In this document: one piece after another, positions 7,745-34,184 of the stretch
Layout: every line of letters starts with the position of its first letter
Numbering within the stretch: the first letter of the stretch is position 1
Assembly (NCBI GenBank): GCA_027486695.1
Contig: JAIXOS010000089.1
Coordinates: 1 to 46,473 of the forward strand
Direction of reading: 5' to 3'
DNA length: 46,473 nucleotides
Source of the DNA: Chitinophagaceae bacterium
Lineage (GTDB): Bacteria > Bacteroidota > Bacteroidia > Chitinophagales > Chitinophagaceae
The notes under the pieces: model-generated
The model's input: only the letters and a program-made list of their open reading frames with translations
Databases searched by the model: none
What the model was told of the DNA's origin: nothing
Program-made: the position numbers and the translations under genes

Positions 7745-9493
7745 TTATGCGTTTGATGCAACATATTGCTTGAGTGTAAAGCCAAACGTACTACCCGAGC
7801 CTAGTTCGCTTTTTACGTCAATGTTTCCTCCTTGTGCTTCTATAAATTCTTTGCTAATGCTTAAGCCCAATCCTGTACCTTCTTTTTTTGTGCCGGGTAT
7901 GCGAAAATAACGGTCAAAGATTTTGTCAACATATTGTGGTGATATGCCTTGTCCGGTATCCGTAACTGAGAATTGTATTGCATCATTTTCGGTGTTCACA
8001 TTAATGTATATAACTGAATTCTCGTAAGAATAACGAATAGCGTTTGAAAGTAAATTGGTAAGCACCCACGAGGTTTTTTCACTGTCGGCAAATACTTTTG
8101 GCAAATGATCAGGAGCATTTGTGTTTAACTTGATTTGCTTTTGTTCTGCGGCTGCTTTGTTTGCATTTACTGCGTATTCAACAATTTCATTTGCATCTGA
8201 TGCCATCATATTCATTTGAACGGTTCCACTTTCTACCTGTGTCATATTGAGCAATTCGCCAGTAATTTTCAACAATCTTCCTGCATCTTCTTTAATGCTT
8301 TCAATAAGGCTAAGTTGTTCTGTATTGAGTACCCCAACTTGTTTGTTTTCCAATAATTGCAAACTCATTTTAATGGAAGCAATGGGTGTTTTTAACTCAT
8401 GCGATACCGTTGCAATAAAATTTGTTTTTGCAAAGTCTAATTCTTTATATGGGGTAATATTTTGTAATATAATTACGGTGCCAATTTGCTTTTCCTCCTG
8501 TTCTCCGGTGGGGACTATTTTGATAGGTATGATTTCTTTTTCAAAGTAGCTTTCTTTATTGTCGGCATAAATTTTAATGGGTTGCTGTTTAGCGCTACTT
8601 TGCAAGTTATCGGAATTAAACAGTTCCTGAACCAAGGTGCGAATTAAATCGTTTTGTACTGCAATGTCCTGAACAGGTGTTGCAATAACTTGCTCCAATT
8701 TTAGACCAGCAATTTTAAGTGCAATATTATTCATGAATAACACCTGCTTCTTTTCATCTAAACCAATAACTGGTTCACTCATATTATTAATGAGTGTTTC
8801 AATTCTTTTCTTTTCCATCATCAGCTTTTCAAGATTGCTAGCCTTGTATTCTTCCAACTTCTCGGCCATTGTATTAAAGGCTGTTGACAGTTCCCCAAAC
8901 TCATTGTGCTTTTCAAAATGAACCCTTTGAGAATAATTTTGTGCTGCAATTTCTTTTATGCTTTTTGTTAGTTCTTTTACTGGATTAGCAATATTTCCGG
9001 GTAAATTAAACAGCACAGTTAATGCAATTAGAAAACAAATGGTGCCAGTTAGCGAAATCCATAAAATGGACGTATCGGAGGTTGTTTCTGCTACTTTACT
9101 TTTTCTTTGTATCGCCTGCATATTCAACAGCATAATATCGGTTACGTCCTCGTGTATAGCTTTTAAAATAAGGCTGTCTGTAGGTGCTTGTTTTAATTTA
9201 GCAAAGTCAATTGCCAGTTTATCTGTTAAATCTTTTTCGCCTACTTCGGTAATGTTGTTTTGCTGCTTTATGAGGTTTTCCTCAAACAATTTTGATTGAT
9301 CGGGCTTTGAAATGTCTGCATTCAATGCTATTAGCATTTTACGTGAATAATCCAGCGTATTGTAATTGGCTACCAATATATTCTTTGTATCGCCTGAGAG
9401 CTTATTAATAAAAATACTGCTTAGGGCTGTAAGCAGGGCAATCATGGCAAATAACAGCCCTATGCCCAATAATAGTTTTGCTTTAATTTTCAT
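7745..9493 (-). CDS. Sensor histidine kinase (2 TM, HAMP, PAS-like, HisKA, HATPase) in the kdp operon
   Basis: SHELKTP H-box, NLLSNAIRY N-box, DTGQGI and GTGLGL G-boxes; HAMP-like NEFGELSTAFNTM; overlaps kdpD stop. Confidence 0.93.
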   Translation of the reverse strand: MKIKAKLLLGIGLLFAMIALLTALSSIFINKLSGDTKNILVANYNTLDYSRKMLIALNADISKPDQSKLFEENLIKQQNNITEVGEKDLTDKLAIDFAKLKQAPTDSLILKAIHEDVTDIMLLNMQAIQRKSKVAETTSDTSILWISLTGTICFLIALTVLFNLPGNIANPVKELTKSIKEIAAQNYSQRVHFEKHNEFGELSTAFNTMAEKLEEYKASNLEKLMMEKKRIETLINNMSEPVIGLDEKKQVLFMNNIALKIAGLKLEQVIATPVQDIAVQNDLIRTLVQELFNSDNLQSSAKQQPIKIYADNKESYFEKEIIPIKIVPTGEQEEKQIGTVIILQNITPYKELDFAKTNFIATVSHELKTPIASIKMSLQLLENKQVGVLNTEQLSLIESIKEDAGRLLKITGELLNMTQVESGTVQMNMMASDANEIVEYAVNANKAAAEQKQIKLNTNAPDHLPKVFADSEKTSWVLTNLLSNAIRYSYENSVIYINVNTENDAIQFSVTDTGQGISPQYVDKIFDRYFRIPGTKKEGTGLGLSISKEFIEAQGGNIDVKSELGSGSTFGFTLKQYVASNA

Positions 9494-10617
9494 CAGCTTA
9501 AAATGATAAGGTCAATATCGTTTAATGATAGTTTTTTGAGTAATTCGTTAAACACATTGGTAGCCAAAATTACTTTTATTAAATTTAAATGGGGTTTGCC
9601 TATGCAGATGGTTGTTATCTTCCTTTCTTCGCATTGTTCAATAATTGCTTTGGAGATATTGGCACTTTCTACTTTAATAATTTCGGCACCAAGTTCTGTT
9701 GCCAATTTAAAGTGGTTAATCAAGTGCCTTTGTTTGTCAAGTGGAATGTTGCTGCTACTTTCGGCCGGCGTTTGTACATATAAAACATACCATTGGCTAT
9801 TGTAATAGTTGGCCAAACGGGCGGTTTTTCTAATCACTGTTTTGGCCGTGGTTTCGTTAGAACTTATACAAGCCAAAAAACGTTCGTGTTTGCGTGAGTT
9901 GACATTGGTAATTTCTGTTTCTACTTTGCGTACTACTTGTGCTGCTACTTCTTTTAAAGCCAATTCCCTGAGTTGTAAAATATGGTCGCTCTTAAAAAAA
10001 TTCTTTAGTGCGGTTTCAATTTTTTCGGCCTGATAAATTTTCCCTTCCTTTAATCTTGCTATTAATTCATCGGCGGTTAAATCAATATTTACCACTTCAT
10101 CGGCTTGGGCAAGTACACTGTCTGGAATCCTTTCTTTTACCTCAACACCGGTAATGCGCTTAACTTCTTCATTCAAGCTTTCAATATGCTGAATGTTTAC
10201 TGCACTAATAACATTAATGCCTGCGTCCAAAATTTCAAGCACATCCTGCCAGCGTTTTTCATTCTTACTGCCTTCAATATTGGTATGTGCAAGCTCGTCT
10301 ACAATAACCACTTCAGGCCGTAAACTAATGATGGCCTGTACGTCTAATTCATCTAGTTCTTTCCCTTTGTAAAACAATTGTCTCCTTGGCACAATAGGCA
10401 GTCCTTCTAGTAAGGCATGCGTTTCTTTTCGGTTATGTGTTTCTATATAACCAACTTTTACATCAATGCCATTTTTTAGTAAGGCATGGGCTTCCTGCAG
10501 CATACGGAAAGTTTTGCCTACACCGGCACTCATGCCAATGTAAACTTTAAACTTTCCGCGCCTTGATTTTTTAATCAGGTCAAGAAAGTGCTGTACGGTT
10601 TGATCTTTATCTGGCAT
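9493..10617 (-). CDS. kdpD: Stand-alone KdpD N-terminal sensor domain plus Usp domain
   Basis: GKFKVYIGMSAGVGKT Walker A, VDELAHTN, KRWQDV, NIQHIESLN, LRELAL; no TM or kinase domain. Confidence 0.92.
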   Translation of the reverse strand: MPDKDQTVQHFLDLIKKSRRGKFKVYIGMSAGVGKTFRMLQEAHALLKNGIDVKVGYIETHNRKETHALLEGLPIVPRRQLFYKGKELDELDVQAIISLRPEVVIVDELAHTNIEGSKNEKRWQDVLEILDAGINVISAVNIQHIESLNEEVKRITGVEVKERIPDSVLAQADEVVNIDLTADELIARLKEGKIYQAEKIETALKNFFKSDHILQLRELALKEVAAQVVRKVETEITNVNSRKHERFLACISSNETTAKTVIRKTARLANYYNSQWYVLYVQTPAESSSNIPLDKQRHLINHFKLATELGAEIIKVESANISKAIIEQCEERKITTICIGKPHLNLIKVILATNVFNELLKKLSLNDIDLIILS

Positions 10618-11177
10618 TACTTTAAATTATCTAAAGCTATATTCAATTTAAGCACATTAATTCTTTCTGTTCCCAATATACCCCCTAAAGGTTTTTCTGT
10701 GTTTGATATAATTAATTGCTGTAAGTTCTCTTCCGATATAGCTCTAATTTTTGCAATTCTTTTTATCTGAATGTTGGCTGCTTGTACAGAAATATGTGGG
10801 TCTAATCCACCACCACTTGCAGTTACGATATCAGATGGAATTGCTGATTTTTGTATACCCGGATTGTGTACTAAAAAAGTATCAATTCTTGCCTGAACTT
10901 CTTTGAGGTAATCGGGATTGGATGGCCCTTTATTGCTGCCGCCTGCACCTGCTGCATTATAGCCCACAGCAGATGGACGGGAATAGAAATACTTATCCTC
11001 TGTAAATTTTTGTCCAATATTGCTGTAATAGGTTTTACCATTGGTTGTAACAATTGCACCTTTCCCCTTATTAGGTGCTAATTGGGCAACACTCCAAACA
11101 ATGAGCGTATAAATGCCTGAAAAGAACAACAAACAAACTGCGGTGAGCCTGATGGCTGGAAAAATATTTGCTTTCAT
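10617..11177 (-). CDS. kdpC: K+-transporting ATPase subunit C
   Basis: N-terminal TM, YFYSRPSA, DIVTASGGGLDPHIS, INVLKLNIALD. Confidence 0.95.
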   Translation of the reverse strand: MKANIFPAIRLTAVCLLFFSGIYTLIVWSVAQLAPNKGKGAIVTTNGKTYYSNIGQKFTEDKYFYSRPSAVGYNAAGAGGSNKGPSNPDYLKEVQARIDTFLVHNPGIQKSAIPSDIVTASGGGLDPHISVQAANIQIKRIAKIRAISEENLQQLIISNTEKPLGGILGTERINVLKLNIALDNLK

Positions 11178-11189
11178 GTGTGTAATTTT

Positions 11190-13232
11190 TTAAATGAATG
11201 TTGTAACTAAAATATCAATAAGTTTTATTCCAATAAAGGGTACAATTACGCCACCTAAACCGTAAATCAGCAAGTTACGGCGCAGCAATGCACTTGCCCC
11301 GATAGGTTTGTAGGCAACACCCCTTAATGCTAGTGGAATTAAAAATGGAATGATGATGGCATTAAAAATTACTGCCGATAAAATGGCACTTTCAGGTGAA
11401 TGTAATTTCATAATATTTAAACCCTGCAAGGCTGGTATTGAAGCAATGAACAATGCGGGAACAATGGCAAAATATTTTGCTACATCATTTGCTATGCTGA
11501 AGGTGGTAAGTGTGCCCCTTGTCATTAAAAGTTGTTTCCCAATTTCAACTATCTCAATTAGTTTGGTAGGGTCATTATCCAAGTCAACCATATTGCCTGC
11601 TTCTTTTGCAGCCTGTGTGCCGCTATTCATAGCCACGCCAACATCTGCCTGTGCCAATGCAGGGGCATCGTTGGTGCCATCGCCCATCATGGCAACAAGC
11701 CTTCCTTCACTTTGCTCTTTTTTGATATAATTCATTTTATCTTCTGGCTTCGCCTCTGCAATAAAATCGTCTACGCCTGCTTTTTCTGCAATATATTTCG
11801 CCGTTAATGGATTGTCGCCAGTTACCATTACGGTTTTAATACCCATTTTACGAAGCCTTTCAAAACGTTCGCTAATACCCGTCTTAATGATGTCCTGCAA
11901 TTCGATAACGCCAATTACTCGTTCATTTTCTGCCACAACCAGCGGTGTACCCCCATTGCTTGAAATGATTGTTACTTGTTCGGCTGTTTCAATGGGAAAT
12001 ACATTACCCGCATTTTCGCACAGTTTTATAATGGCATCTGATGCTCCTTTTCTAATACGGGTGTTTTGAAATTCAACACCCGAGCTTCTAGTTTCGGCAG
12101 TAAATTTTATAAACCGAGGATTTTCCATTTGATAACTCAATGGATTGATCCCGGCTAGTTCAATAATAGACTTTCCTTCGGGGGTTTCATCGGCCATTGA
12201 ACTCAATACGGTTGCTTTGATAAATGCTTTTTCATCAACACCATTTGCCGGATAAAATTTTGTTGCTTTTCTATTTCCAATGGTGATGGTTCCCGTTTTA
12301 TCTAACAACAATACATCAATATCGCCTGCGGTTTCTACGGCTTTGCCACTTTTGGTAATTACATTTGCCCGTAATGCCCTGTCCATACCTGCAATACCAA
12401 TGGCAGATAACAAACCGCCGATTGTTGTAGGTATTAAACAAACAAACAAAGCAATAAATGCTGAAATGGTAATAGGTGTTTGAGCATAATCGCCAAATGG
12501 TTTTAACGTTATAGTTACAATAATAAAAACCAATGTAAAACCCGCCAGCAAAATAGTTAATGCAATTTCGTTGGGTGTTTTTTGTCTTGATGCACCTTCT
12601 ACTAGGGCAATCATTTTGTCCAGAAAGCTTTCGCCTACCTCTGTTGTTACTTTTACTTTTATTTGATCGGACAACACTTTCGTGCCACCTGTTACACTGC
12701 TTTTGTCTCCCCCCGCTTCACGAATTACAGGGGCACTCTCTCCGGTAATAGCACTTTCATCAATAGTGGCAAGGCCTTCTATAATTTCACCATCAGAAGG
12801 AATAATGTCGCCCGTTTCGCATAAAAAAATATCCCCTTTTTTTAATTGGGAAGATGGAACCATTTTAACTTCATTCATATAAATTTCTCCAACGGATTGT
12901 ATCCATTTGGCGGGGGTTTCTTCCCTTGTTTTACGAAGGCTGTTAGCCTGTGCCTTACCCCTTGCTTCAGCAAGGGCTTCTGCAAAATTGGCAAATAGTA
13001 ATGTGATAAATAGAACGGCTGTTACTACTATATTGTAAGCAAGGCTGCCCTGATGTGTTTCGCCGGTTGCTATCCATATACAAACGCCGGCCATTACCAA
13101 TGTGCCAACCCAAACGGTAAACATTACTGGGTTAAGGAACATTTTTATTGGACTAAGTTTTATGAATGACTGTTTCAATGCTTCATTTACAATTGTGGCT
13201 TGAAACAATTTTTTATTACTGCTACTTTTCAT
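11190..13232 (-). CDS. kdpB: K+-transporting P-type ATPase subunit B
   Basis: TGES, DKTGT phosphorylation site, [28 protein letters not shown]. Confidence 0.98.
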
Positions 13233-13242
13233 GATTCAATAA

Positions 13243-14943
13243 TTAATAAATGGAGAAATATTCTGCAATTGGGCCTAATGTCAATGCAGGGAAAAATGAC
13301 AATGCGGCTATTATAACGATTACGGCAAACACCATCAGTCCAAAAGTTGCCGTATCCGTTTTTAAAGTACCTGCACTTTCGGGAATGTATTTTTTATTGG
13401 CAAGAATACCGGCAATTGCCACCGGGCCAATAATGGGTAAGTATCTAGCCAAAAGCATCACCATTCCGCAGGCAATATTCCAAAATGGGGTATTGTCACC
13501 CAATCCTTCAAATCCGCTGCCATTGTTTGCGCTAGAAGAGGTAAACTCGTACAGCATTTCGCTAAAGCCGTGATGCCCCGGATTGGCAAGCCAGCCTGCA
13601 TATAATGTGGGATTTTGTGCATATAAATGGCTTGCAATGGCAGTGCTTACTAAAATTAAAAAAGGGTGTAGCAATGCAATAATCATGGCAATCTTCATTT
13701 CCCTTGCTTCAATTTTTTTACCCAAAAATTCCGGCGTTCTTCCCACCATCAGGCCACTAATGAATACCGCAAGAATAATGAAGATGTAAAAATTTAAAAA
13801 GCCAACTCCTACGCCACCGAAAAAAGCATTTATCATCATGCCCAGCATAGCAAACATACCAGACAAGGGTGTTAAGCTGTCGTGCATAGCATTTACGGAG
13901 CCATTACTTGTTACGGTTGTATTGATGGCCCAGTAGGCAGATGCTGCTGAACCAAAACGTACTTCTTTGCCTTCCATGCTGCCCATTGGTTGTGTAATAC
14001 CCATTTTTGAAATGGCTGGATTACCCTTCATTTCATTGATAATTGTTGGTATTAGTAACAACAGGAAACCAATTGTCATTACGCCAAAAATTGTCCAGGC
14101 AAGTTTCTTTCGTTTCAACACAAAACCCAAAGCAAAAATCATTGCCATTGGAATTAAAGTAATAGAAATTGTTTCTATTATGTTAGTGAAGTAGTTGGGG
14201 TTTTCAAAAGGATGTGCCGAATTGGGGCCAAAAAAACCACCACCGTTTGTACCCAATTGTTTGATGGCAACAAAAGCTGCTACCGGCCCTCGGCTTACTT
14301 GTACAGTATCTCCTTGTACATTGGTAATAGTGTCTTTGCCTTCAAAAGTCATGGGGGTACCATTAAATACCAACAAGAGTGCAATTACTAGTGCTATGGG
14401 GAATAAAATTCTTGTACAACTTCTTACAAATAAAAAATAGAAATTACCCAACTTGTCCGTAGCTTTTTCCTTCATGGCAAAGAAGACAACCGCTGCAATG
14501 GCAATGCCACAACCTGCAGATATGAATTGCCAGAGCATTAAAGTGAGTTGACCTAAATACGACAATCCAGTTTCGCCTGAGTAATGTTGAAGATTTGTAT
14601 TCGTAACAAAACTTACTGCCGTATTAAAAGCCAAGTCGCCACTCATAGAGGGGTTGGCATCTGGATTTAATGGTAGCCAATGCATGTTGGTAAGAACAAA
14701 CATTGCAATCAAAAACCAAATCAAATTAATGGTCAGCAAAGCTACAAGGTGTTGCTTCCAATTCATTTCTTTGGTTGGATTGATGCCACTTAGTTTGTAA
14801 AATATATTGTCTAATGGGTTGAAAATAATATCCGACCAGTTTTTTTCATTGCTGAATATTTTGCCCATGTATTTGCCCAATGGAATGGCCATAGCAACCA
14901 AAGCCGCATACATTAAAATGATACCTGTAATTTCTGTGTTCAT
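13243..14943 (-). CDS. kdpA: K+-transporting ATPase subunit A
   Basis: FVTNTNLQHYSGE, KQLGTNGGGFF, SAHPFENP, EGKEVRFG, SSANNGSGF. Confidence 0.98.
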   Translation of the reverse strand: MNTEITGIILMYAALVAMAIPLGKYMGKIFSNEKNWSDIIFNPLDNIFYKLSGINPTKEMNWKQHLVALLTINLIWFLIAMFVLTNMHWLPLNPDANPSMSGDLAFNTAVSFVTNTNLQHYSGETGLSYLGQLTLMLWQFISAGCGIAIAAVVFFAMKEKATDKLGNFYFLFVRSCTRILFPIALVIALLLVFNGTPMTFEGKDTITNVQGDTVQVSRGPVAAFVAIKQLGTNGGGFFGPNSAHPFENPNYFTNIIETISITLIPMAMIFALGFVLKRKKLAWTIFGVMTIGFLLLLIPTIINEMKGNPAISKMGITQPMGSMEGKEVRFGSAASAYWAINTTVTSNGSVNAMHDSLTPLSGMFAMLGMMINAFFGGVGVGFLNFYIFIILAVFISGLMVGRTPEFLGKKIEAREMKIAMIIALLHPFLILVSTAIASHLYAQNPTLYAGWLANPGHHGFSEMLYEFTSSSANNGSGFEGLGDNTPFWNIACGMVMLLARYLPIIGPVAIAGILANKKYIPESAGTLKTDTATFGLMVFAVIVIIAALSFFPALTLGPIAEYFSIY

Positions 14944-14946
14944 GGT

Positions 14947-15024
14947 TTAAAATTTTTCCGGTTTTACCAATACATAACACATATACGCAAAAACGCCAAT
15001 GGCTATGATGAATAGAGTGATCAT
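14947..15024 (-). CDS. kdpF: K+-transporting ATPase subunit F (25 aa, absent from ORF track)
   Basis: Manual translation MITLFIIAIGVFAYMCYVLVKPEKF; single TM with the KdpF Y..YVL.KPEKF tail; 3 nt before kdpA start. Confidence 0.92.
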   Translation of the reverse strand: MITLFIIAIGVFAYMCYVLVKPEKF

Positions 15025-15029
15025 AATTG

Positions 15030-15113
15030 TTAGATTTTTTCGAAGAAGTTAATTGCTGAATAAAAGAGTGCAAAAAGCAGTAGTCCTGTAGCTGTTAAGA
15101 TTGTAGTAATCAT
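15030..15113 (-). CDS. Small single-TM peptide upstream of kdpF (27 aa)
   Basis: Manual translation MITTILTATGLLLFALFYSAINFFEKI; A-rich leader before ATG; stop 5 nt before kdpF start. Confidence 0.7.
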   Translation of the reverse strand: MITTILTATGLLLFALFYSAINFFEKI

Positions 15114-15246
15114 TGTTTAGTTTTTTTGGTAATTGTAAAGCCTCCTTTACTTGTTATGTGCTACACAACTGCAGAAGTAAATTGTATCGTTCTCGCATTA
15201 GGGTTGCTAATATTTCAAAAACTGATTTGTTACGATGACAAATATT

Positions 15247-15363
15247 TTAGTTATCTACAATCCTATAAATAAACCCTGCAATGATAATGGTGCCATAAAG
15301 GCAAGCTAGAAGATGCCATGATTTTAAGTTCTTGGCAATCCACCTTTTTTTTGAGTATGTCAT
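15247..15363 (-). CDS. Possible small membrane peptide (38 aa), first ORF of the kdp transcript
   Basis: Manual translation MTYSKKRWIAKNLKSWHLLACLYGTIIIAGFIYRIVDN; basic N-terminus then hydrophobic stretch; lies just downstream of the candidate sigma-54 promoter. Confidence 0.4.
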   Translation of the reverse strand: MTYSKKRWIAKNLKSWHLLACLYGTIIIAGFIYRIVDN

Positions 15364-15387
15364 TTGAAATTCTTTTGTTAGTATATG

Positions 15388-15402
15388 CCAAAAAGCAGGC
15401 CT
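15388..15402 (-). promoter_or_regulatory. Candidate sigma-54 -24/-12 promoter for the kdp operon
   Basis: Minus strand AGGCCTGCTTTTTGG vs consensus TGGCACGNNNNTTGC (GG-N10-GG instead of GC); adjacent to a sigma-54 activator gene. Confidence 0.45.
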
Positions 15403-15476
15403 TTAATTTCAGAATAGGCATAAAGCATTGATAATAAAGAGTTTACTTAATTTCTGCAGAATTTTTCAAATAAAAA

Positions 15477-15518
15477 ACCCTTTCAAATTGAAAGGGTCTA
15501 TACTATCGTTTTGATAGT
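15477..15518. promoter_or_regulatory. Tandem palindromes, candidate upstream activator sites of the NtrC-type regulator
   Basis: ACCCTTTCAAATTGAAAGGGT (centre 15487) and ACTATCGTTTTGATAGT (centre 15510); shared core CTWTC-N5-GAWAG. Confidence 0.6.
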
Positions 15519-15622
15519 GTTTGTAGCCATCAAGAGTTTAAATGGTTATTAGCTTCATTCCTGAATGACTAATTTGCTATAAAAAATTATAAAGTTAAAT
15601 TGCATCAAGTGTATTTGGATTA

Positions 15623-16987
15623 TTACTTCTCCAATCCGTAATCAGCTAGTTTCCGGTACAACGTAGTTAAAGCAATGTTCAATAAACGGGCTGTTTCTGT
15701 TTTATTGCCATTGGTATAGTTGAGTACTTTTTGAATGTGTAGTTTTTCGGCACTTGCAAGGTCAAAGGCTGATAATAGTTTTTGGGTAGTGGAAGGTTGA
15801 GTATTATTGGTCGAAAGTTGTTGCAACTCTATTGGTAAACAATTAACCGTTAGTTCTTCGCTATCCATTAATATTACGCTGCGTTCAATTACATTTTTTA
15901 ATTCGCGGATATTCCCTTTCCAATTATGTTGTTTAAGTACTTCGAAATAGGCGTTTGAAATGGAGGTTATTTTTTTATTGGACTTATTTGCAAAAAGTTG
16001 TAGAAAGTAGGCAGCCAATTCGTCAATATCAACTACTCTTTCTCTTAGTGCCGGTAGCGCAATTTGAAAAACTGCAATGCGGTAAAATAAATCTTCTCTA
16101 AAATTGGCTGCTTCAATTTCCTTTTTCAAATCCCTATTGGTAGCGGCAATAATACGCACGTTGGTTTTGGTTGTTTTACTATCGCCTACTTTAATAAATT
16201 CGCCAGTTTCCAAAACCCTTAATAGTTTGGCTTGCAGGGCTAATGGCATTTCTCCAAGCTCGTCCAAAAAAACGGTGCCTTGGTTAGCTTCTTCAAAAAT
16301 GCCCTTGGTATCTTTTATAGCGCCGGTAAATGCACCTGCTTTATGTCCGAACAATTCATTTTCTAATAAATCTTTACTAAAGGCGGAACAATTGACTGCA
16401 ACGAAATTATGTTTGCTACGGTTGCTGTTATTGTGAATGGCTTGTGCAAATACTTCTTTGCCTGTTCCTGTTTCGCCGGTAAGCAAAACGGAGGCATCTG
16501 TTACGGCTACTTTTTTTGCGGCATCAATAGCTGCTTTGATAATTTTTGATTTGCCTATAATGTTATCAAAAGAATGTTTATTGCCTAATTGTTTTTCTAA
16601 GTGTACAACTCGTTTTGCCAAAAGTACTTTTTCAGTTGCCTTATATAGTAGAGGAATTATTCTGTTATTATCATCGCCTTTTGTAATGTAATCAAAAGCG
16701 CCGTTTTTAATTGCTTGCACACCATCAGGTATATTTCCATAAGCAGTAAGCAAAATAATTTCTATGAATGGATATTTTTCTTTTATGGTTTTTGATAATT
16801 CTACGCCGCTGCCATCAGGTAATTTAACATCACAAATAACTACGTCAATATCAGCTGTTTCCAGCTTTTGCAACCCTTTTTTGGCATCTCCCGCCTGCAA
16901 TACTTCAAAACCTTCTAAACTGATGATTTTAGCAAGCAATGTCCTAATTTTTTCTTCATCGTCTATAATTAACACTTTGTGCAGCAT
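15623..16987 (-). CDS. Sigma-54-dependent NtrC-family response regulator (REC-AAA+-Fis HTH)
   Basis: IIDDEE/DVKLPD receiver, GETGTGKE, GAFTGA, FLDELGE, FREDLFYR, WKGNIRELKN, C-terminal HTH; start at MLHKV. Confidence 0.95.
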   Translation of the reverse strand: MLHKVLIIDDEEKIRTLLAKIISLEGFEVLQAGDAKKGLQKLETADIDVVICDVKLPDGSGVELSKTIKEKYPFIEIILLTAYGNIPDGVQAIKNGAFDYITKGDDNNRIIPLLYKATEKVLLAKRVVHLEKQLGNKHSFDNIIGKSKIIKAAIDAAKKVAVTDASVLLTGETGTGKEVFAQAIHNNSNRSKHNFVAVNCSAFSKDLLENELFGHKAGAFTGAIKDTKGIFEEANQGTVFLDELGEMPLALQAKLLRVLETGEFIKVGDSKTTKTNVRIIAATNRDLKKEIEAANFREDLFYRIAVFQIALPALRERVVDIDELAAYFLQLFANKSNKKITSISNAYFEVLKQHNWKGNIRELKNVIERSVILMDSEELTVNCLPIELQQLSTNNTQPSTTQKLLSAFDLASAEKLHIQKVLNYTNGNKTETARLLNIALTTLYRKLADYGLEK

Positions 16988-17049
16988 AGAAAAAAGGTTG
17001 GTAAAAGGTACATTTGATATAGTGATATTTAGTGCAATGTACAATTACT

Positions 17050-17520
17050 TTAGCCATACGAAACCGCTACATTTCTGTTAAAGCTTTCTTCGAGCGAAAT
17101 AAGTGTTTCTGTGCGTTCAATACCTTTAATTTTTTGTAGTTCGTCGTGCAGCACGTAGCGCAATTGTTGAATGTCCTTGCATACAATTTCTACGAACATA
17201 CTATAATTGCCCGTTGTATAGTTTACCCGTACTACTTGCGGTATTTGTTGCAGTTCTTTTGCTACGGTATCGTACAAAGAACTTTTTTCTAGATAAATGC
17301 CAATAAAAGCAACCACATCGTAACCCAATGCTTTTAAATCAATAGCCAACCGTCTACCTTTTACCACACCGCTTTCTTCCAGTTTTTTGATGCGTACGTG
17401 TATGGTACCTCCACTCACAAACAATTTTTTACCTAAATCGGCGTAGGATATCTCGGCATTGTTCATCATTTCGTGAATAATTTGAAAATCGAGTTTGTCA
17501 AGATTTAATTTATTGTTCAT
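17050..17520 (-). CDS. Lrp/AsnC family transcriptional regulator (AsnC-like)
   Basis: LDKLDFQII...SYADLGKKLFVSGGTIHVRIKKL HTH; YTTGNYSMF and TETLISL RAM-domain motifs that resemble E. coli AsnC; start at MNNKL. Confidence 0.92.
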   Translation of the reverse strand: MNNKLNLDKLDFQIIHEMMNNAEISYADLGKKLFVSGGTIHVRIKKLEESGVVKGRRLAIDLKALGYDVVAFIGIYLEKSSLYDTVAKELQQIPQVVRVNYTTGNYSMFVEIVCKDIQQLRYVLHDELQKIKGIERTETLISLEESFNRNVAVSYG

Positions 17521-17744
17521 TTTGCGGTCTTTTTTTAATTTATTTCTAAATAAATTTAATTTATTTAAACAAAATCTAAATTTATGAAAAAAATGTTGAA
17601 ATATTTGCAACGTACCAATATCTGTTATAATATTGCATTGTCAATTTGATTATCGGTAATTACCGAAGATAAGTAATGATTTATCAAAAAATTGACTAGT
17701 TCTTTAGATATTTTCCATCTAATGAAAATATTTGTTATCCATAC

Positions 17745-17916
17745 TGTGGGGTGATGAAATTTTTGGCAGACATGCCCTCTTGTCTCGGGGGTGAGGAATC
17801 TGGGATAAACATGATGTAGAGCCGGATAGGTAGCAATACTTATTCGACCAGGGTCGACCACTGAACTTTGCGTCAAAGCTAACCACCTCGTGGAGGTTCG
17901 ACCCCTCCCCCTACAG
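17745..17916 (+). ncRNA. tRNA-Asp(GUC)-like RNA with ~100-nt multibranched variable region
   Basis: Acceptor TGTGGGG(17745-51)/CCCTACA(17909-15) with G discriminator; D arm ATG/CAT with GG loop; anticodon stem CCCTC/GGGGG with loop TTGTCTC; T arm GGAGG-TTCGACC-CCTCC; insert 17792-17891 closed by GAGG/CCTC; no encoded CCA. Confidence 0.8.
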
Positions 17917-17942
17917 CTCTCTTTCTCTATGCTTTAGTTTTT

Positions 17943-17981
17943 GAAAGTCTTTGCAGTGTATGCTTCAAAGGCTTTCTTTTT
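17943..17981 (+). terminator. Intrinsic terminator of the tRNA-like RNA
   Basis: GAAAGTCTTTG...CAAAGGCTTTC hairpin followed by TTTTT. Confidence 0.7.
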
Positions 17982-18078: not shown

Positions 18079-18088
18079 ATTTTCAATG

Positions 18089-18162
18089 TGGGCCCACCAG
18101 GGCATGATCCTGGGACCCCCTGATTATGAGTCAGGTGCTCTAACCAACTGAGCTATAGGCCC
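18089..18162 (-). tRNA. tRNA with CAT anticodon, most likely tRNA-Ile2 (lysidine type)
   Basis: GGGCCTATAGCTCAGTTGGTTAGAGCACCTGACTCATAATCAGGGGGTCCCAGGATCATGCCCTGGTGGGCCCA folds into a full cloverleaf; G1-C72 rules out the initiator; body resembles Ile2 rather than elongator Met; no encoded CCA. Confidence 0.9.
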
Positions 18163-32272: not shown

Positions 32273-32308
32273 TCCCACAAACCAACATTGGTTTGTGGGA
32301 ATTTTTTT
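32273..32308. terminator. Terminator hairpin between convergent genes
   Basis: TCCCACAAACCAA-ca-TTGGTTTGTGGGA perfect stem followed by T run. Confidence 0.75.
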
Positions 32309-34184
32309 ATTGAAACAGCGTTGCGGCGCTTAAGTATCGCCAGTTAAAACTGTTGCCGGCGTGTGCGGCTTGTGGTACAATTTTTTGCGCTAGCACTTTC
32401 TTGTGTAAAACACCTTTTTGCACCAACAACTCTTTACTTGATTGAATCAACTCAATCATTGCCTTATGTTGCATCCATACTTGTTGTGGCGGTTCAAAGC
32501 CTATTTTATTGGGTCTCCAAACGATAGATGGCGGCAACAAATCATTACTTGCTTTTCGTAGCAACCACTTTGTAAACCCGTTGTTAAACTTATAGGCATC
32601 TGGCAGGGCAAACACAAACTCTACCAACGTATGGTTTAAAAAAGGCAACCTTACTTCGCAACCGTGTGCCATTGAATTTCGGTCGGCGTAGCGCAACAAT
32701 TCCATTAATCCAAAATGTACTGTATTATAATACAACAAATCGCTTGCTTTGTACACAACCGGCTTCATTAATGTATCAATATTAACGTGTTGCAGAAAAA
32801 AATCGGGATGAATGAAGCCTTGTTTTTGTTGCTGTGCTGCTGCATGCAATTGTAATTTTTGGGCTAGCTTATCCGGACGATACCATGCCGCAAGGTAATT
32901 TTTGATTCCCCATGTTTCTACAAACTCGTTTTTTTGAAACAAAGGCAATGCTTTTTTAAATGCGTTAAAATTGTGTTTCAACAAATACTGCAAATGCCAA
33001 TGGGTATATTTTTTATATCCACCCAATATTTCATCCGCGCCCTGACCATCTAATAAAACCTTAACCCCTTGTTGCCTAGCACATTGGTACACCAAATATT
33101 GCGTAACCACGCTACTGCTTTGTACTGGTTCTTCTTGATGATAACTTATTTTTTGCCAATGTTGTATCCAGTCGTTTACAGAGATGGGTACAATATGGTG
33201 CTTCAAATGAAACTGTTCAGCCACTGTTGTAGCAAAAGCGGTTTCATCTTTTTCAAAGCCTGGAAAAGAAGCTGTAAAGGCTGATTGGGAGCGAGGTGGT
33301 GCGCACTTGGCCATAAATGCTACAATAGCCGAACTATCGAGCCCCCCACTAAGACTAGCACCCACCGAAACATGGGAACGCAATCTTTTTTCAACCGATT
33401 GCGCTAATAAATTTTTAAACTGTGCTATAACAGATTGTTCGTTGTCAATATCATCTATCGTTAAAGCTGAACTTGCAGTAGCTAATGTATACCATTTTTT
33501 TAGCTGTATTTTTCCGGCTGCGGGTTGTATAAACAAACAATGACCGGGCGGTAAACTCAAAATGTCATTAAAAAAGGATTGTGTTTTCTTGAGCGGATTT
33601 TGGGTATAACCTAACGTAAGGTAATTGAGCACCATGGTTCCATTTAACCATTTAGGCACCTGTGCAGCCCACAACGCTTTCATTTCGCTGGCAAAAAGTA
33701 ACTGCTTAAATTTTCCTCGCTCTTGGTATTCAGCATGATAATAAAAAGGCTTTTCGCCAAAGCGATCTCTAGCTGCAAAAATTTGGTTGCTTTTTTGGTC
33801 GTAAATAACCATAGCAAACATGCCATCGAACTTATGTAAACAAGCACTTCCCCAACAATCAAAAGCTGCAAGTACCACTTCGGTATCGGATTGGGTGGTA
33901 AATTGGTAACCTAGCCCGTGCAATTCATTTTTGAGTTCGATATAATTGTAGATTTCGCCATTATACACAATTACATAATGTAAATAGTGCATGGGCTGAT
34001 TGGCCGAGCTGTTTAAGTCTACAATAGCCAATCTTTTATGACCTAAACAAACTGTATGGGCATCATTGCTCCAAACACCCTCTCCGTCGGGCCCTCGGTG
34101 CGCTAGTGCATGTATCATGCTACGCACTTTGGCAGGCTGCGCCAATGCTTCGTAAGGACTGATTATACCGGCTATACCACACAT
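32307..34184 (-). CDS. asnB: Asparagine synthase (glutamine-hydrolysing) family amidotransferase
   Basis: N-terminal MCGIAG, HRGPD, NGEIYN, RDRFGEKP, SLSGGLDSS, DGQGADE, EVRLPFL. Confidence 0.92.
   Translation of the reverse strand: MCGIAGIISPYEALAQPAKVRSMIHALAHRGPDGEGVWSNDAHTVCLGHKRLAIVDLNSSANQPMHYLHYVIVYNGEIYNYIELKNELHGLGYQFTTQSDTEVVLAAFDCWGSACLHKFDGMFAMVIYDQKSNQIFAARDRFGEKPFYYHAEYQERGKFKQLLFASEMKALWAAQVPKWLNGTMVLNYLTLGYTQNPLKKTQSFFNDILSLPPGHCLFIQPAAGKIQLKKWYTLATASSALTIDDIDNEQSVIAQFKNLLAQSVEKRLRSHVSVGASLSGGLDSSAIVAFMAKCAPPRSQSAFTASFPGFEKDETAFATTVAEQFHLKHHIVPISVNDWIQHWQKISYHQEEPVQSSSVVTQYLVYQCARQQGVKVLLDGQGADEILGGYKKYTHWHLQYLLKHNFNAFKKALPLFQKNEFVETWGIKNYLAAWYRPDKLAQKLQLHAAAQQQKQGFIHPDFFLQHVNIDTLMKPVVYKASDLLYYNTVHFGLMELLRYADRNSMAHGCEVRLPFLNHTLVEFVFALPDAYKFNNGFTKWLLRKASNDLLPPSIVWRPNKIGFEPPQQVWMQHKAMIELIQSSKELLVQKGVLHKKVLAQKIVPQAAHAGNSFNWRYLSAATLFQ

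What the first reader, a model, noticed from the sequence alone, without database searches (positions are those of the whole stretch)
17050..17981. AsnC regulator divergent from the tRNA mimic: possible RNA-scaffolded Asp-to-Asn system
Seen: an AsnC-like Lrp gene and the RNA are divergent across a very AT-rich 224-bp spacer (17521-17744). The RNA carries G34-U35-C36, C38 and G73 together with a U1-A72 first pair. Established: in E. coli, asnC is divergent from and regulates asnA (asparagine synthetase) in response to Asn; GUC, C38 and G73 are AspRS identity elements; U1-A72 is the main determinant by which bacterial GatCAB recognises tRNA-Asn/Gln, and real tRNA-Asp has G1-C72. Inference: the RNA sits where asnA sits in E. 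coli and combines AspRS and GatCAB determinants, while U37 and the oversized variable arm may keep it off the ribosome. It could be a dedicated carrier that is aspartylated, amidated to Asn-RNA and deacylated to supply free Asn under AsnC control. An AspRS decoy or Asp/Asn sensor is an alternative.
Basis: inference. Interest (0 to 1): 0.85.

Follow-up and report, generated by a model that had tools for sequence, protein, structure and literature searches.

The report
tRNA look-alike for making asparagine
This is a real, conserved tRNA-shaped RNA gene with a 100-base extra arm, missed by standard tRNA and RNA-family finders and found only in genomes that also keep the amidating enzyme GatCAB; it likely serves as a dedicated, non-translating carrier on which these bacteria turn aspartate into asparagine.

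Summary
Confirmed. 17745-17917 is an uncatalogued 173-nt RNA: a tRNA-Leu-type cloverleaf with a 100-nt folded variable domain, divergent from an AsnC orthologue. Its structure covaries. It occurs across Bacteroidota and in over 100 viral contigs. The scan had noted this family before on other DNA (7 notes). New here is the gene profile. All 51 RNA-bearing genomes of an 80-genome panel have gatB, against 2 of 29 without the RNA. Among genomes with GlnRS the figures are 48/48 and 1/27. RNA-bearing genomes keep AsnRS and mostly lack AsnA (2/51) and E. coli-type AsnB (0/51). Of ten gatB genomes that looked RNA-free, nine lack GlnRS and the tenth carries the RNA. U1-A72, G73, U35-C36, C38, G49-C65 and A51-U63 are nearly invariant, but position 34 takes all four bases, so it is not a decoding tRNA. 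Best reading (0.55): AspRS charges it, GatCAB amidates it, asparagine is released. Main rival: a transamidosome scaffold RNA (0.2).

The parts
17050..17520 (-). asnC orthologue (Lrp/AsnC regulator, 156 aa), divergent from the RNA
   Evidence: synteny
17604..17635 (+). predicted promoter of the RNA: TTTG (17604-17607), 20 nt, TAATATTG (17628-17635); fits the Bacteroidota -33/-7 consensus (consensus recalled, not from a call)
   Evidence: the same two boxes recur in the spacers printed; marks an overlapping sigma-70-like site (3 found, 2.7 expected by chance)
17745..17917 (+). tRNA-like RNA, U1 to C74 (CA of CCA not encoded, as for most tRNA genes here)
   Evidence: RNA-run contigs lie on 17745-17917 and stop at 17916/17917 (weak, contigs only)
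17745..17751 (+). acceptor 5' strand; U1-A72, G2-C71, U3-A70
   Evidence: 134, 135 and 135 of 135 distinct homologues
17754..17773 (+). tRNA-Leu-type D arm (3-bp stem, A15, G18 G19, A20a)
   Evidence: next-best model hits are tRNA-Leu; D arm nearly identical to tRNA-Leu(GAG) printed
17775..17791 (+). anticodon arm, loop UU-GUC-UC (GUC at 17782-17784, U37, C38)
17792..17891 (+). 100-nt variable domain: basal helix, conserved A-rich internal loop (17803-17810 with 17878-17883), long helix, variable hairpin (17825-17844), conserved small hairpin (17851-17861)
   Evidence: covariation in helices 4-8; arm shrinks to about 36 nt in the shortest homologues but keeps the internal loop
17892..17908 (+). 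T arm with G49-C65 and A51-U63, the pairs that keep Asp-tRNA(Asn) off EF-Tu
   Evidence: 134 of 135 each; PMC1904265 passages
17909..17917 (+). acceptor 3' strand, discriminator G73 (17916) and C74 (17917)
   Evidence: G73 in 135/135, 96/96, 70/70
17943..17981 (+). predicted intrinsic terminator (hairpin plus U run)
   Evidence: -15.6 kcal/mol hairpin; not called by the simple scan

Best explanation
The RNA is a tRNA-Leu-derived, non-decoding RNA that likely acts as a dedicated carrier for asparagine synthesis: it would be charged with aspartate by the ordinary AspRS, amidated by GatCAB, and would then give up asparagine for AsnRS, probably under AsnC control. Shown here: the gene, its fold, its conserved identity bases, its synteny with asnC, its one-way dependence on gatB, and the near absence of AsnA/E. 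coli-type AsnB where it occurs. Inferred from published identity rules: (1) U35, C36, C38, G73 and G2-C71 let AspRS charge it, while C36 bars AsnRS and G73 bars LeuRS; (2) U1-A72 lets GatCAB amidate the bound Asp; (3) G49-C65 plus A51-U63, the free position 34, Y37 and the large arm keep it out of translation; (4) AsnC switches it on when asparagine is low, as it does asnA in E. coli. Weakest step: release. Spontaneous hydrolysis looks too slow, so a catalysed deacylation or transfer is needed; the conserved part of the extra arm is the candidate docking site. This lets a cell keep an AspRS that need not mischarge tRNA-Asn and still use GatCAB as its asparagine synthetase.
For: gatB in 51/51 RNA-positive against 2/29 RNA-negative genomes (RNA status). 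Among genomes with GlnRS, where GatCAB is not needed for Gln-tRNA: 48/48 against 1/27. AsnRS in 78 of 80, gatA and gatC in 5 of 5 tested. asnA 2/51 against 8/29; E. coli-type asnB over cut-off 0/51 against 8/29 and 0 of 5 further RNA-positive genomes. Prediction tested: of 10 gatB genomes with no pattern hit, 9 lack GlnRS and the tenth has two RNA copies; 5 of 5 further gatB genomes of that family also have two, while its gatB-less, asnB-bearing member G074 has none. On an AspRS tree the RNA needs at least 12 changes; independent pairs go with gatB 3.6 of 4 times and never against. Identity bases; rules from passages of PMC9976931, PMC1635274, PMC1904265. G49-C65 with A51-U63 was in 4 of 4 tRNA-Asn and 0 of 14 tRNA-Leu controls. 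No AspRS column separates RNA-positive from gatB-less genomes.
Against: No biochemical step tested. A20a and an enlarged D-loop: an extra base at 20A cut amidation about 10-fold on tRNA-Asn and left tRNA-Asp(U1-A72) 100-fold below wild type (PMC1635274 passages). G10 and G1-C72 of the aspartate set are absent, and G34 is replaced by A, U or C in 90 distinct metagenomic copies and in 5 of 48 genomic places. With a 7-min half-life (PMC1904265) my rough budget needs 0.6-2.3 million RNA copies per cell (cell parameters assumed), and no release gene was seen beside the RNA, gat genes or phage copies. The window itself holds an AsnB-like gene over the broad TIGR01536 cut-off (32307-34184); such paralogues were not profiled and are under-counted. 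13 of 29 RNA-negative genomes have neither gatB, asnA nor asnB, so the markers do not cover every asparagine source. The tree-corrected test has only 4 well-supported pairs and cannot reach p 0.05. G012 has gatCAB, GlnRS and AsnRS but no RNA or asnC found. Table S1 of PMC4206432 lists Cyclobacterium marinum with asnA and asnB, and other Cyclobacterium records carry the RNA. A51-U63 holds in only 46 of 70 viral copies.
Confidence: 0.55

Rival explanations
1. Scaffold or switch RNA of the transamidosome: the RNA binds one subunit of AspRS and tethers GatCAB, and the amidated substrate is ordinary tRNA-Asn, so the product is Asn-tRNA(Asn) and no release step is needed. AsnC would turn on mischarging only when asparagine is short.
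For: Explains the same gene profile, both sets of identity bases, the protein-binding-like extra arm and the missing release factor. Non-substrate scaffold tRNA is described for the Thermus complex (PMC3367201 passage). The genome's tRNA-Asn keeps U1-A72.
Against: A pure scaffold need not keep G73, a 7-bp acceptor and the anti-EF-Tu T-stem pairs so strictly. AspRS shows no feature tied to the RNA. No such regulated mischarging is known to me (recall).
Confidence: 0.2
2. Asparagine is made by the known route (non-discriminating AspRS, tRNA-Asn, GatCAB) or by an AsnB-like paralogue, and the RNA is only a regulator: a decoy or sensor that titrates AspRS or GatCAB according to asparagine supply.
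For: PMC4206432 (passages, Table S1 rows) proposes that route for genera with AsnRS, GlnRS and GatCAB but no Asn synthetase, Pedobacter among them. The AspRS type cannot be read safely from sequence. AsnB-like gene in the window. G012 lacks the RNA but keeps gatCAB.
Against: A dispensable regulator would not be expected in 48 of 49 genomes that keep gatB beside GlnRS and in 6 of 6 of a second family. AspRS anticodon-domain residues are the same in gatB-less relatives, which should discriminate.
Confidence: 0.13
3. The RNA is charged by another synthetase (SerRS through G73, G2-C71, R4-Y69 and the long arm; or GluRS for the UUC/CUC forms) and carries that residue for a non-ribosomal use.
For: Part of the bacterial serine set is met (PMC9976931 table; R4-Y69 in 132 of 135). 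UUC and CUC forms exist (35 distinct).
Against: C72, C11-G24 and G30-C40 of the serine set are absent; SerRS ignores the anticodon, so invariant U35, C36, C38 and the gatB link would be unexplained. Glutamine has no need of such a route, and the partner regulator is AsnC-like.
Confidence: 0.06
4. An unusual but decoding tRNA-Asp, or a decayed tRNA-Leu pseudogene or mobile repeat.
For: Complete cloverleaf with GUC; sits inside phage tRNA clusters in 4 of 33 viral loci; tandem copies occur.
Against: A normal tRNA-Asp(GUC) is present. Position 34 takes all four bases with no other change, position 37 is a pyrimidine, the arm reaches 140 nt. Strong covariation and a fixed locus exclude decay.
Confidence: 0.03

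Closest known systems
tRNA-dependent asparagine synthesis (non-discriminating AspRS, tRNA-Asn, GatCAB; Asn-transamidosome)
   Same: Same enzymes implied; U1-A72, G73, G49-C65 and A51-U63 as on tRNA-Asn; occurs where AsnA and E. coli-type AsnB are mostly missing.
   Different: The RNA is not tRNA-Asn: C36, Leu-type core, A20a, 100-nt arm, free position 34; it coexists with tRNA-Asn, tRNA-Asp and AsnRS, and its product could not go straight to the ribosome.
Bacterial tRNA-Leu (class II tRNA)
   Same: D arm, A15:U48, one unpaired base before U48, long variable arm; the model's next-best hits (44-58 bits) are tRNA-Leu. Likely ancestor.
   Different: G73 instead of A73, U1-A72, NUC anticodon, Y37, arm of about 36-140 nt with its own conserved motifs.
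Non-elongator tRNAs (staphylococcal tRNA-Gly for cell-wall synthesis, PMC1904265 passage)
   Same: tRNA-shaped amino-acid carrier kept from EF-Tu by T-stem pairs.
   Different: Those are normal-sized and donate an unchanged residue; here the residue would be chemically converted on the RNA and returned to the amino-acid pool.
tRNA-Sec, selC* tRNA-Cys and allo-tRNAs (PMC7609411 passages)
   Same: Long variable arm, G73, amino-acid conversion on a special tRNA (Sec).
   Different: Canonical 7/5 frame, not 8/5, 8/4 or 9/3; no SelB-type decoding; much larger arm.
E. coli asnC-asnA locus
   Same: AsnC-like regulator facing away from a putative asparagine-synthesis gene across an A+T-rich spacer.
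   Different: The partner is an RNA; AsnC binding and asparagine response are untested, and asnA/asnB were not found beside asnC in RNA-less relatives.

Membership tests
Decoding tRNA-Asp | Detected as tRNA by ARAGORN or Rfam RF00005 | tested here: not met
Decoding tRNA-Asp | G1-C72, short variable loop, purine 37, fixed G34 | tested here: not met
   U1-A72, 100-nt arm, U37; position 34 is G, A, U or C
AspRS substrate (works like) | G73, U35, C36, C38, G2-C71 | tested here: met
   G73 and G2-C71 135/135; U35-C36 48/48 with the loop left free; U35, C36, C38 96/96 and 70/70; set from PMC9976931
AspRS substrate (works like) | G34, G10, G1-C72 | tested here: inconclusive
   G34 in this window and 43 of 48 places, but replaced in some lineages; A10 and U1-A72 here
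AspRS substrate (works like) | Aspartylation measured | not testable with these tools
   needs enzyme assay
Bacterial GatCAB substrate (works like) | U1-A72 first pair | tested here: met
   134/135, 95/96, 70/70
Bacterial GatCAB substrate (works like) | Short D-loop without base 20A | tested here: not met
   A20a present in all aligned copies; antideterminant in PMC1635274
Bacterial GatCAB substrate (works like) | gatA, gatB, gatC in the same genome | tested here: met
Bacterial GatCAB substrate (works like) | Amidation measured | not testable with these tools
   needs enzyme assay
tRNA-Asn | GUU anticodon (U36) | tested here: not met
   C36 in every copy with the loop left free; a separate tRNA-Asn exists
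tRNA-Leu | Leu-type D arm and A15:U48 core | tested here: met
tRNA-Leu | A73 and a Leu anticodon | tested here: not met
   G73, NUC
tRNA-Sec / selC* / allo-tRNA | Lengthened acceptor stem (8 or 9 bp) | tested here: not met
   7-bp acceptor; -1 base is A or G in 22 of 135; C74 rule
tmRNA | G3.U70, tag reading frame, no anticodon arm | tested here: not met
   U3-A70 and a full anticodon arm; the genome's tmRNA lies elsewhere
AsnC (PRK11179 equivalog) | Score above the curated cut-off | tested here: not met
   162.7 bits against 227, but far ahead of the next family (68.6); E. coli AsnC is the best solved match
AsnC (PRK11179 equivalog) | Asparagine-responsive activation of the divergent gene | not testable with these tools
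   E. coli behaviour from PMC8707732 passage

The most novel reading that the evidence does not exclude
A widespread, previously uncatalogued class of metabolic carrier RNA: a tRNA-Leu-derived molecule that is the asparagine synthetase scaffold of many Bacteroidota, loaded by a normal AspRS, amidated by GatCAB and unloaded through its own extra domain, replacing AsnA/AsnB and borrowed by phages to raise asparagine supply.
Probability: 0.5. Interest if true: 0.95.

Novelty: categorically new. Interest (0 to 1): 0.86.

Why it matters
If right, an RNA serves as a reusable carrier for making a free amino acid, much as carrier proteins do, and is kept apart from decoding. It would explain why many Bacteroidota retain GatCAB although they have both AsnRS and GlnRS, a puzzle that PMC4206432 ascribes to a non-discriminating AspRS, and it would correct asparagine-auxotrophy predictions. 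It gives a natural orthogonal tRNA scaffold that tolerates large inserts. The tests are simple: two enzyme assays and one deletion in a harmless soil or freshwater species. The enzymes are known; what lies outside known kinds is the dedicated non-decoding RNA. If the scaffold rival holds, it would still be a new RNA component of the transamidosome.

Tried and rejected
Rfam at gathering and E-value thresholds, ARAGORN: no hit on the RNA. Single-sequence folding gave z -1.27 and an alternative D/anticodon fold; rejected in favour of the comparative structure (constrained cloverleaf -55.5 kcal/mol). The 8-bp acceptor parse (5' end 17744) was rejected. Model hits of 58 bits or less were counted as negatives: 14 of 14 checked are tRNA-Leu and one 185-nt hit is tandem ordinary tRNAs. 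The exact pattern misses divergent copies (6 genomes recovered by the model), so its 224 negatives are an upper bound. Typing AspRS by the His/Gly signature: no His at that place in any of 66 sequences shown, but the signature is recalled, the two papers were not held (search empty) and I recall non-discriminating enzymes without it, so it is not used as proof. Testing tRNA-Asn U1-A72 in relatives failed: no tRNA lay beside asnS in 40 of 40 stretches. GatB of 20 RNA-positive and 30 pattern-negative genomes: intact tail, no diagnostic residue. No recurring partner gene beside 33 viral copies, 80 genomic copies or gat genes, other than asnC and ordinary synteny. asnA/asnB loci carry no asnC (8 of 8). 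No match in annotated phages (2 queries) or plasmids. RNA runs are contigs of relatives, 8 lays of 7 runs out of 24 listed: they cannot give level, strand, 5' end or CCA; one joint after C74 reads 'CA' but fits a jump to 17771 equally. No structure or complex prediction was run; none handles RNA here.

Full report
OBSERVATION. The window has an Lrp/AsnC gene at 17050-17520 (-) and, across a 224-bp spacer of 79% A+T, a 173-nt G+C-richer element at 17745-17917 (+). The protein's best family is AsnC (162.7 bits, under the cut-off of 227; next family 68.6) and its best solved match is E. coli AsnC. ARAGORN and Rfam do not see the element. It folds as a 7/5 cloverleaf with anticodon GUC, U37, C38, U1-A72, G73 and a 100-nt variable domain, between a predicted Bacteroidota-type promoter (consensus recalled) and a terminator-like hairpin. 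The genome has separate tRNA-Asp, tRNA-Asn and tmRNA genes.

STRUCTURE. On 26 homologues from the window's family, 99.0% of cells pair, 17 of 42 pairs change on both sides, 0 of 500 shuffles reach this, and slid controls pair 46-55%. Covariation is strongest in the extra domain. All 26 tRNA genes of the genome encode C74 after the discriminator and base -1 is A or G in 22 of 135 homologues, so the mature frame is U1 to G73. A covariance model scores family members at 87 bits or more; its next hits (58 bits or less) are tRNA-Leu in 14 of 14 checked, whose D arm is nearly the same. The RNA likely arose from tRNA-Leu. Contigs of RNA runs from relatives lie on 17745-17917 and stop at 17916/17917 in four studies, with adapter directly behind in two; this is a weak hint of a discrete transcript and says nothing on level.

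DISTRIBUTION. DNA hits in 40 of 60 family genomes; the 20 negatives and 2 more stayed negative with the model. A pattern scan of GTDB stopped at 122 loci; the 80 listed titles are all Bacteroidota (Chitinophagaceae, Saprospiraceae, Cyclobacteriaceae and other Cytophagales, Flavobacteriales MAGs), often in tandem, up to five copies. Viral contigs: 33 with a strict and 120 or more with a looser pattern. asnC lies divergent within 1.5 kb in 26 of 29 relatives, in 56 of 80 full-flank loci and within 600 nt in 62 of 80 metagenomic loci. It is not obligatory: 29 of 135 copies have none in range, and asnC persists without the RNA in 3 of 5 genomes tested, once with the RNA cleanly gone from between asnC and trmB.

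CONSERVED BASES. In 135 distinct genomic copies: U1-A72 134, G2-C71 135, U3-A70 135, G73 135, G49-C65 134, A51-U63 134, while pairs 4-7 and 50-64 vary (the pattern fixed the D arm and loop, not these pairs). With the loop left free, 48 of 48 places have U35-C36; position 34 is G 43, A 3, U 2; position 37 is U except G in 4 genomes. A metagenome scan that forced a non-G at 34 gave 96 distinct copies (AUC 55, UUC 23, CUC 12, plus 6 GUC neighbours), all with U35, C36, C38 and G73 and 95 with U1-A72; 70 viral copies are all GUC with U1-A72, but only 46 have A51-U63. A free wobble base with fixed 35, 36 and 38 fits a synthetase-recognition loop, not decoding (inference). Published rules, read as passages: bacterial Asp identity is G73, G10, G34, U35, C36, C38, minor G2-C71 (PMC9976931); GatCAB needs U1-A72 and is hindered by base 20A (PMC1635274); G49-C65 and A51-U63 keep Asp-tRNA(Asn) off EF-Tu (PMC1904265). 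The RNA meets most of these, lacks G10 and G1-C72, and has A20a.

GENE PROFILE. In an 80-genome panel (51 with the RNA, 29 without), gatB is in 51/51 and 2/29, asnA in 2/51 and 8/29 (two with internal stops, two under the cut-off). In the same panel with two genomes swapped: E. coli-type asnB 0/51 and 8/29, GlnRS 75/80, AsnRS 78/80, one bacterial AspRS each. Among the 75 with GlnRS, gatB is in 48/48 RNA-positive and 1/27 RNA-negative genomes. The own genome has gatA, gatB, gatC, glnS, asnS and no asnA. On an AspRS tree the RNA state needs 12 changes (4 forced by starred branches); independent pairs follow gatB 3.6 of 4 times, never oppositely, which cannot reach p 0.05 (G152 was counted as lacking asnA there without a search). 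The link is one-way at wider range. In a class-wide draw of 261 genomes, 37 of 37 pattern-positive and 165 of 224 pattern-negative genomes have gatB (one genome, G274, is unpublished and counts only in these tallies). In the other classes of the phylum draw, 108 of 111 have gatB over the cut-off and 1 has the RNA. I tested 10 of the 165: nine lack GlnRS, so GatCAB has its usual Gln-tRNA job; the tenth has GlnRS and proved to carry two RNA copies, as did 5 of 5 more from its family. Four of the nine were also searched with the model and had none. Two of five further RNA-positive genomes lack GlnRS, so the RNA can coexist with the usual job.

AGAINST. AspRS cannot be typed safely: its anticodon domain is alike in RNA-positive and gatB-less genomes, which suggests it discriminates, but the signature is recalled. 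The window carries an AsnB-like gene (32307-34184) above the broad TIGR01536 cut-off and below the E. coli-type one; 6 other RNA-positive genomes show such paralogues, which under-counts them. Thirteen RNA-negative genomes have none of gatB, asnA, asnB. G012 keeps gatCAB with GlnRS and AsnRS, without RNA or asnC found (80 contigs). Table S1 of PMC4206432 (six rows seen) gives Pedobacter heparinus the expected profile but Cyclobacterium marinum asnA and asnB. Release is unsolved: at the 7-min half-life of Asn-tRNA a rough budget needs 0.6-2.3 million copies per cell, and no partner gene recurs beside the RNA. GatB shows no special adaptation.

MECHANISM. Best reading (0.55): AspRS charges the RNA, GatCAB amidates it, a catalysed step frees asparagine for AsnRS, and AsnC, which in E. 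coli activates asnA and is damped by asparagine (PMC8707732 passage), controls supply. Rivals: scaffold or switch for amidating ordinary tRNA-Asn (0.2; scaffold tRNA in PMC3367201 passage); regulator of the known route (0.13); other amino acid (0.06); decoding tRNA or relic (0.03). That the RNA acts with GatCAB in asparagine supply in some way I put near 0.85.

NOVELTY. Ten literature searches were made; those aimed at a description of this RNA listed none, judged from listings and abstract starts, and passages of a review of non-canonical tRNAs do not mention Bacteroidetes (PMC7609411). Most subscription papers are outside the library, and bioRxiv supplements were not open, so an earlier description is not excluded. 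Seven earlier notes of this scan describe the same family on other DNA, several with the carrier idea; a word search for the gatB/GlnRS profile found none. They are not counted as support. Verdict: real, uncatalogued RNA class, tied to GatCAB and asparagine by comparative evidence, mechanism untested; interest 0.86.

Noticed in passing
window 32307-34184 (-): Stand-alone AsnB-like amidotransferase, 625 aa, over the TIGR01536 cut-off but under the E. coli-type AsnB cut-off; could be a second asparagine source or act on another substrate.
   Followed up: partly
window 18088-18162 (-): tRNA with CAU anticodon, convergent with the RNA; its T loop reads GGAUCAUG instead of GGUUCGA. Looks like tRNA-Ile2 rather than Met (recall).
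   Followed up: no
L002, L005, L009, L011, L012, L028 just behind C74; window 17918-17931: A pyrimidine run ending in CUCAUG follows the RNA in several relatives; possible processing or binding signal.
   Followed up: no
leaders of L004, L007, L008, L010, L019, L022 and others: A boxA-like AGUUCUUU motif lies between promoter and RNA in many relatives, and A/T-rich repeats upstream of the promoter may be AsnC sites.
   Followed up: no
L009, L023, L384, L389-L391, L163: Tandem pairs of one short-arm and one long-arm copy are common; Persicobacter diffluens has five copies in a row. Copy number may raise flux.
   Followed up: partly
window 17803-17810 with 17878-17883, and 17851-17861: An A-rich internal loop kept even in the shortest copies, and a small GG-UUGA-CC-A-C hairpin kept in long copies from bacteria and phages; neither matches an Rfam family. 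Unexplained.
   Followed up: partly
L045 (G112:C10): Two degenerate copies with a broken D arm, while an intact copy lies on another contig of the same genome.
   Followed up: no
L047 (G177:C26): The only RNA-positive genome among 111 from other classes, with asnC beside it; possible horizontal transfer.
   Followed up: no
L095:2202-2332 and L074:1793-1913: Phage tRNA-Leu-like genes with a large insert after the D arm, distinct from this family.
   Followed up: no
G044:C13:46081-50045: asnA lies directly beside gatB in one RNA-positive genome.
   Followed up: no
window 7745-17044 (-): Ordinary kdp potassium-uptake cluster with split KdpD and a sigma-54-type response regulator downstream of asnC; this neighbour is not conserved in relatives.
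   Followed up: no
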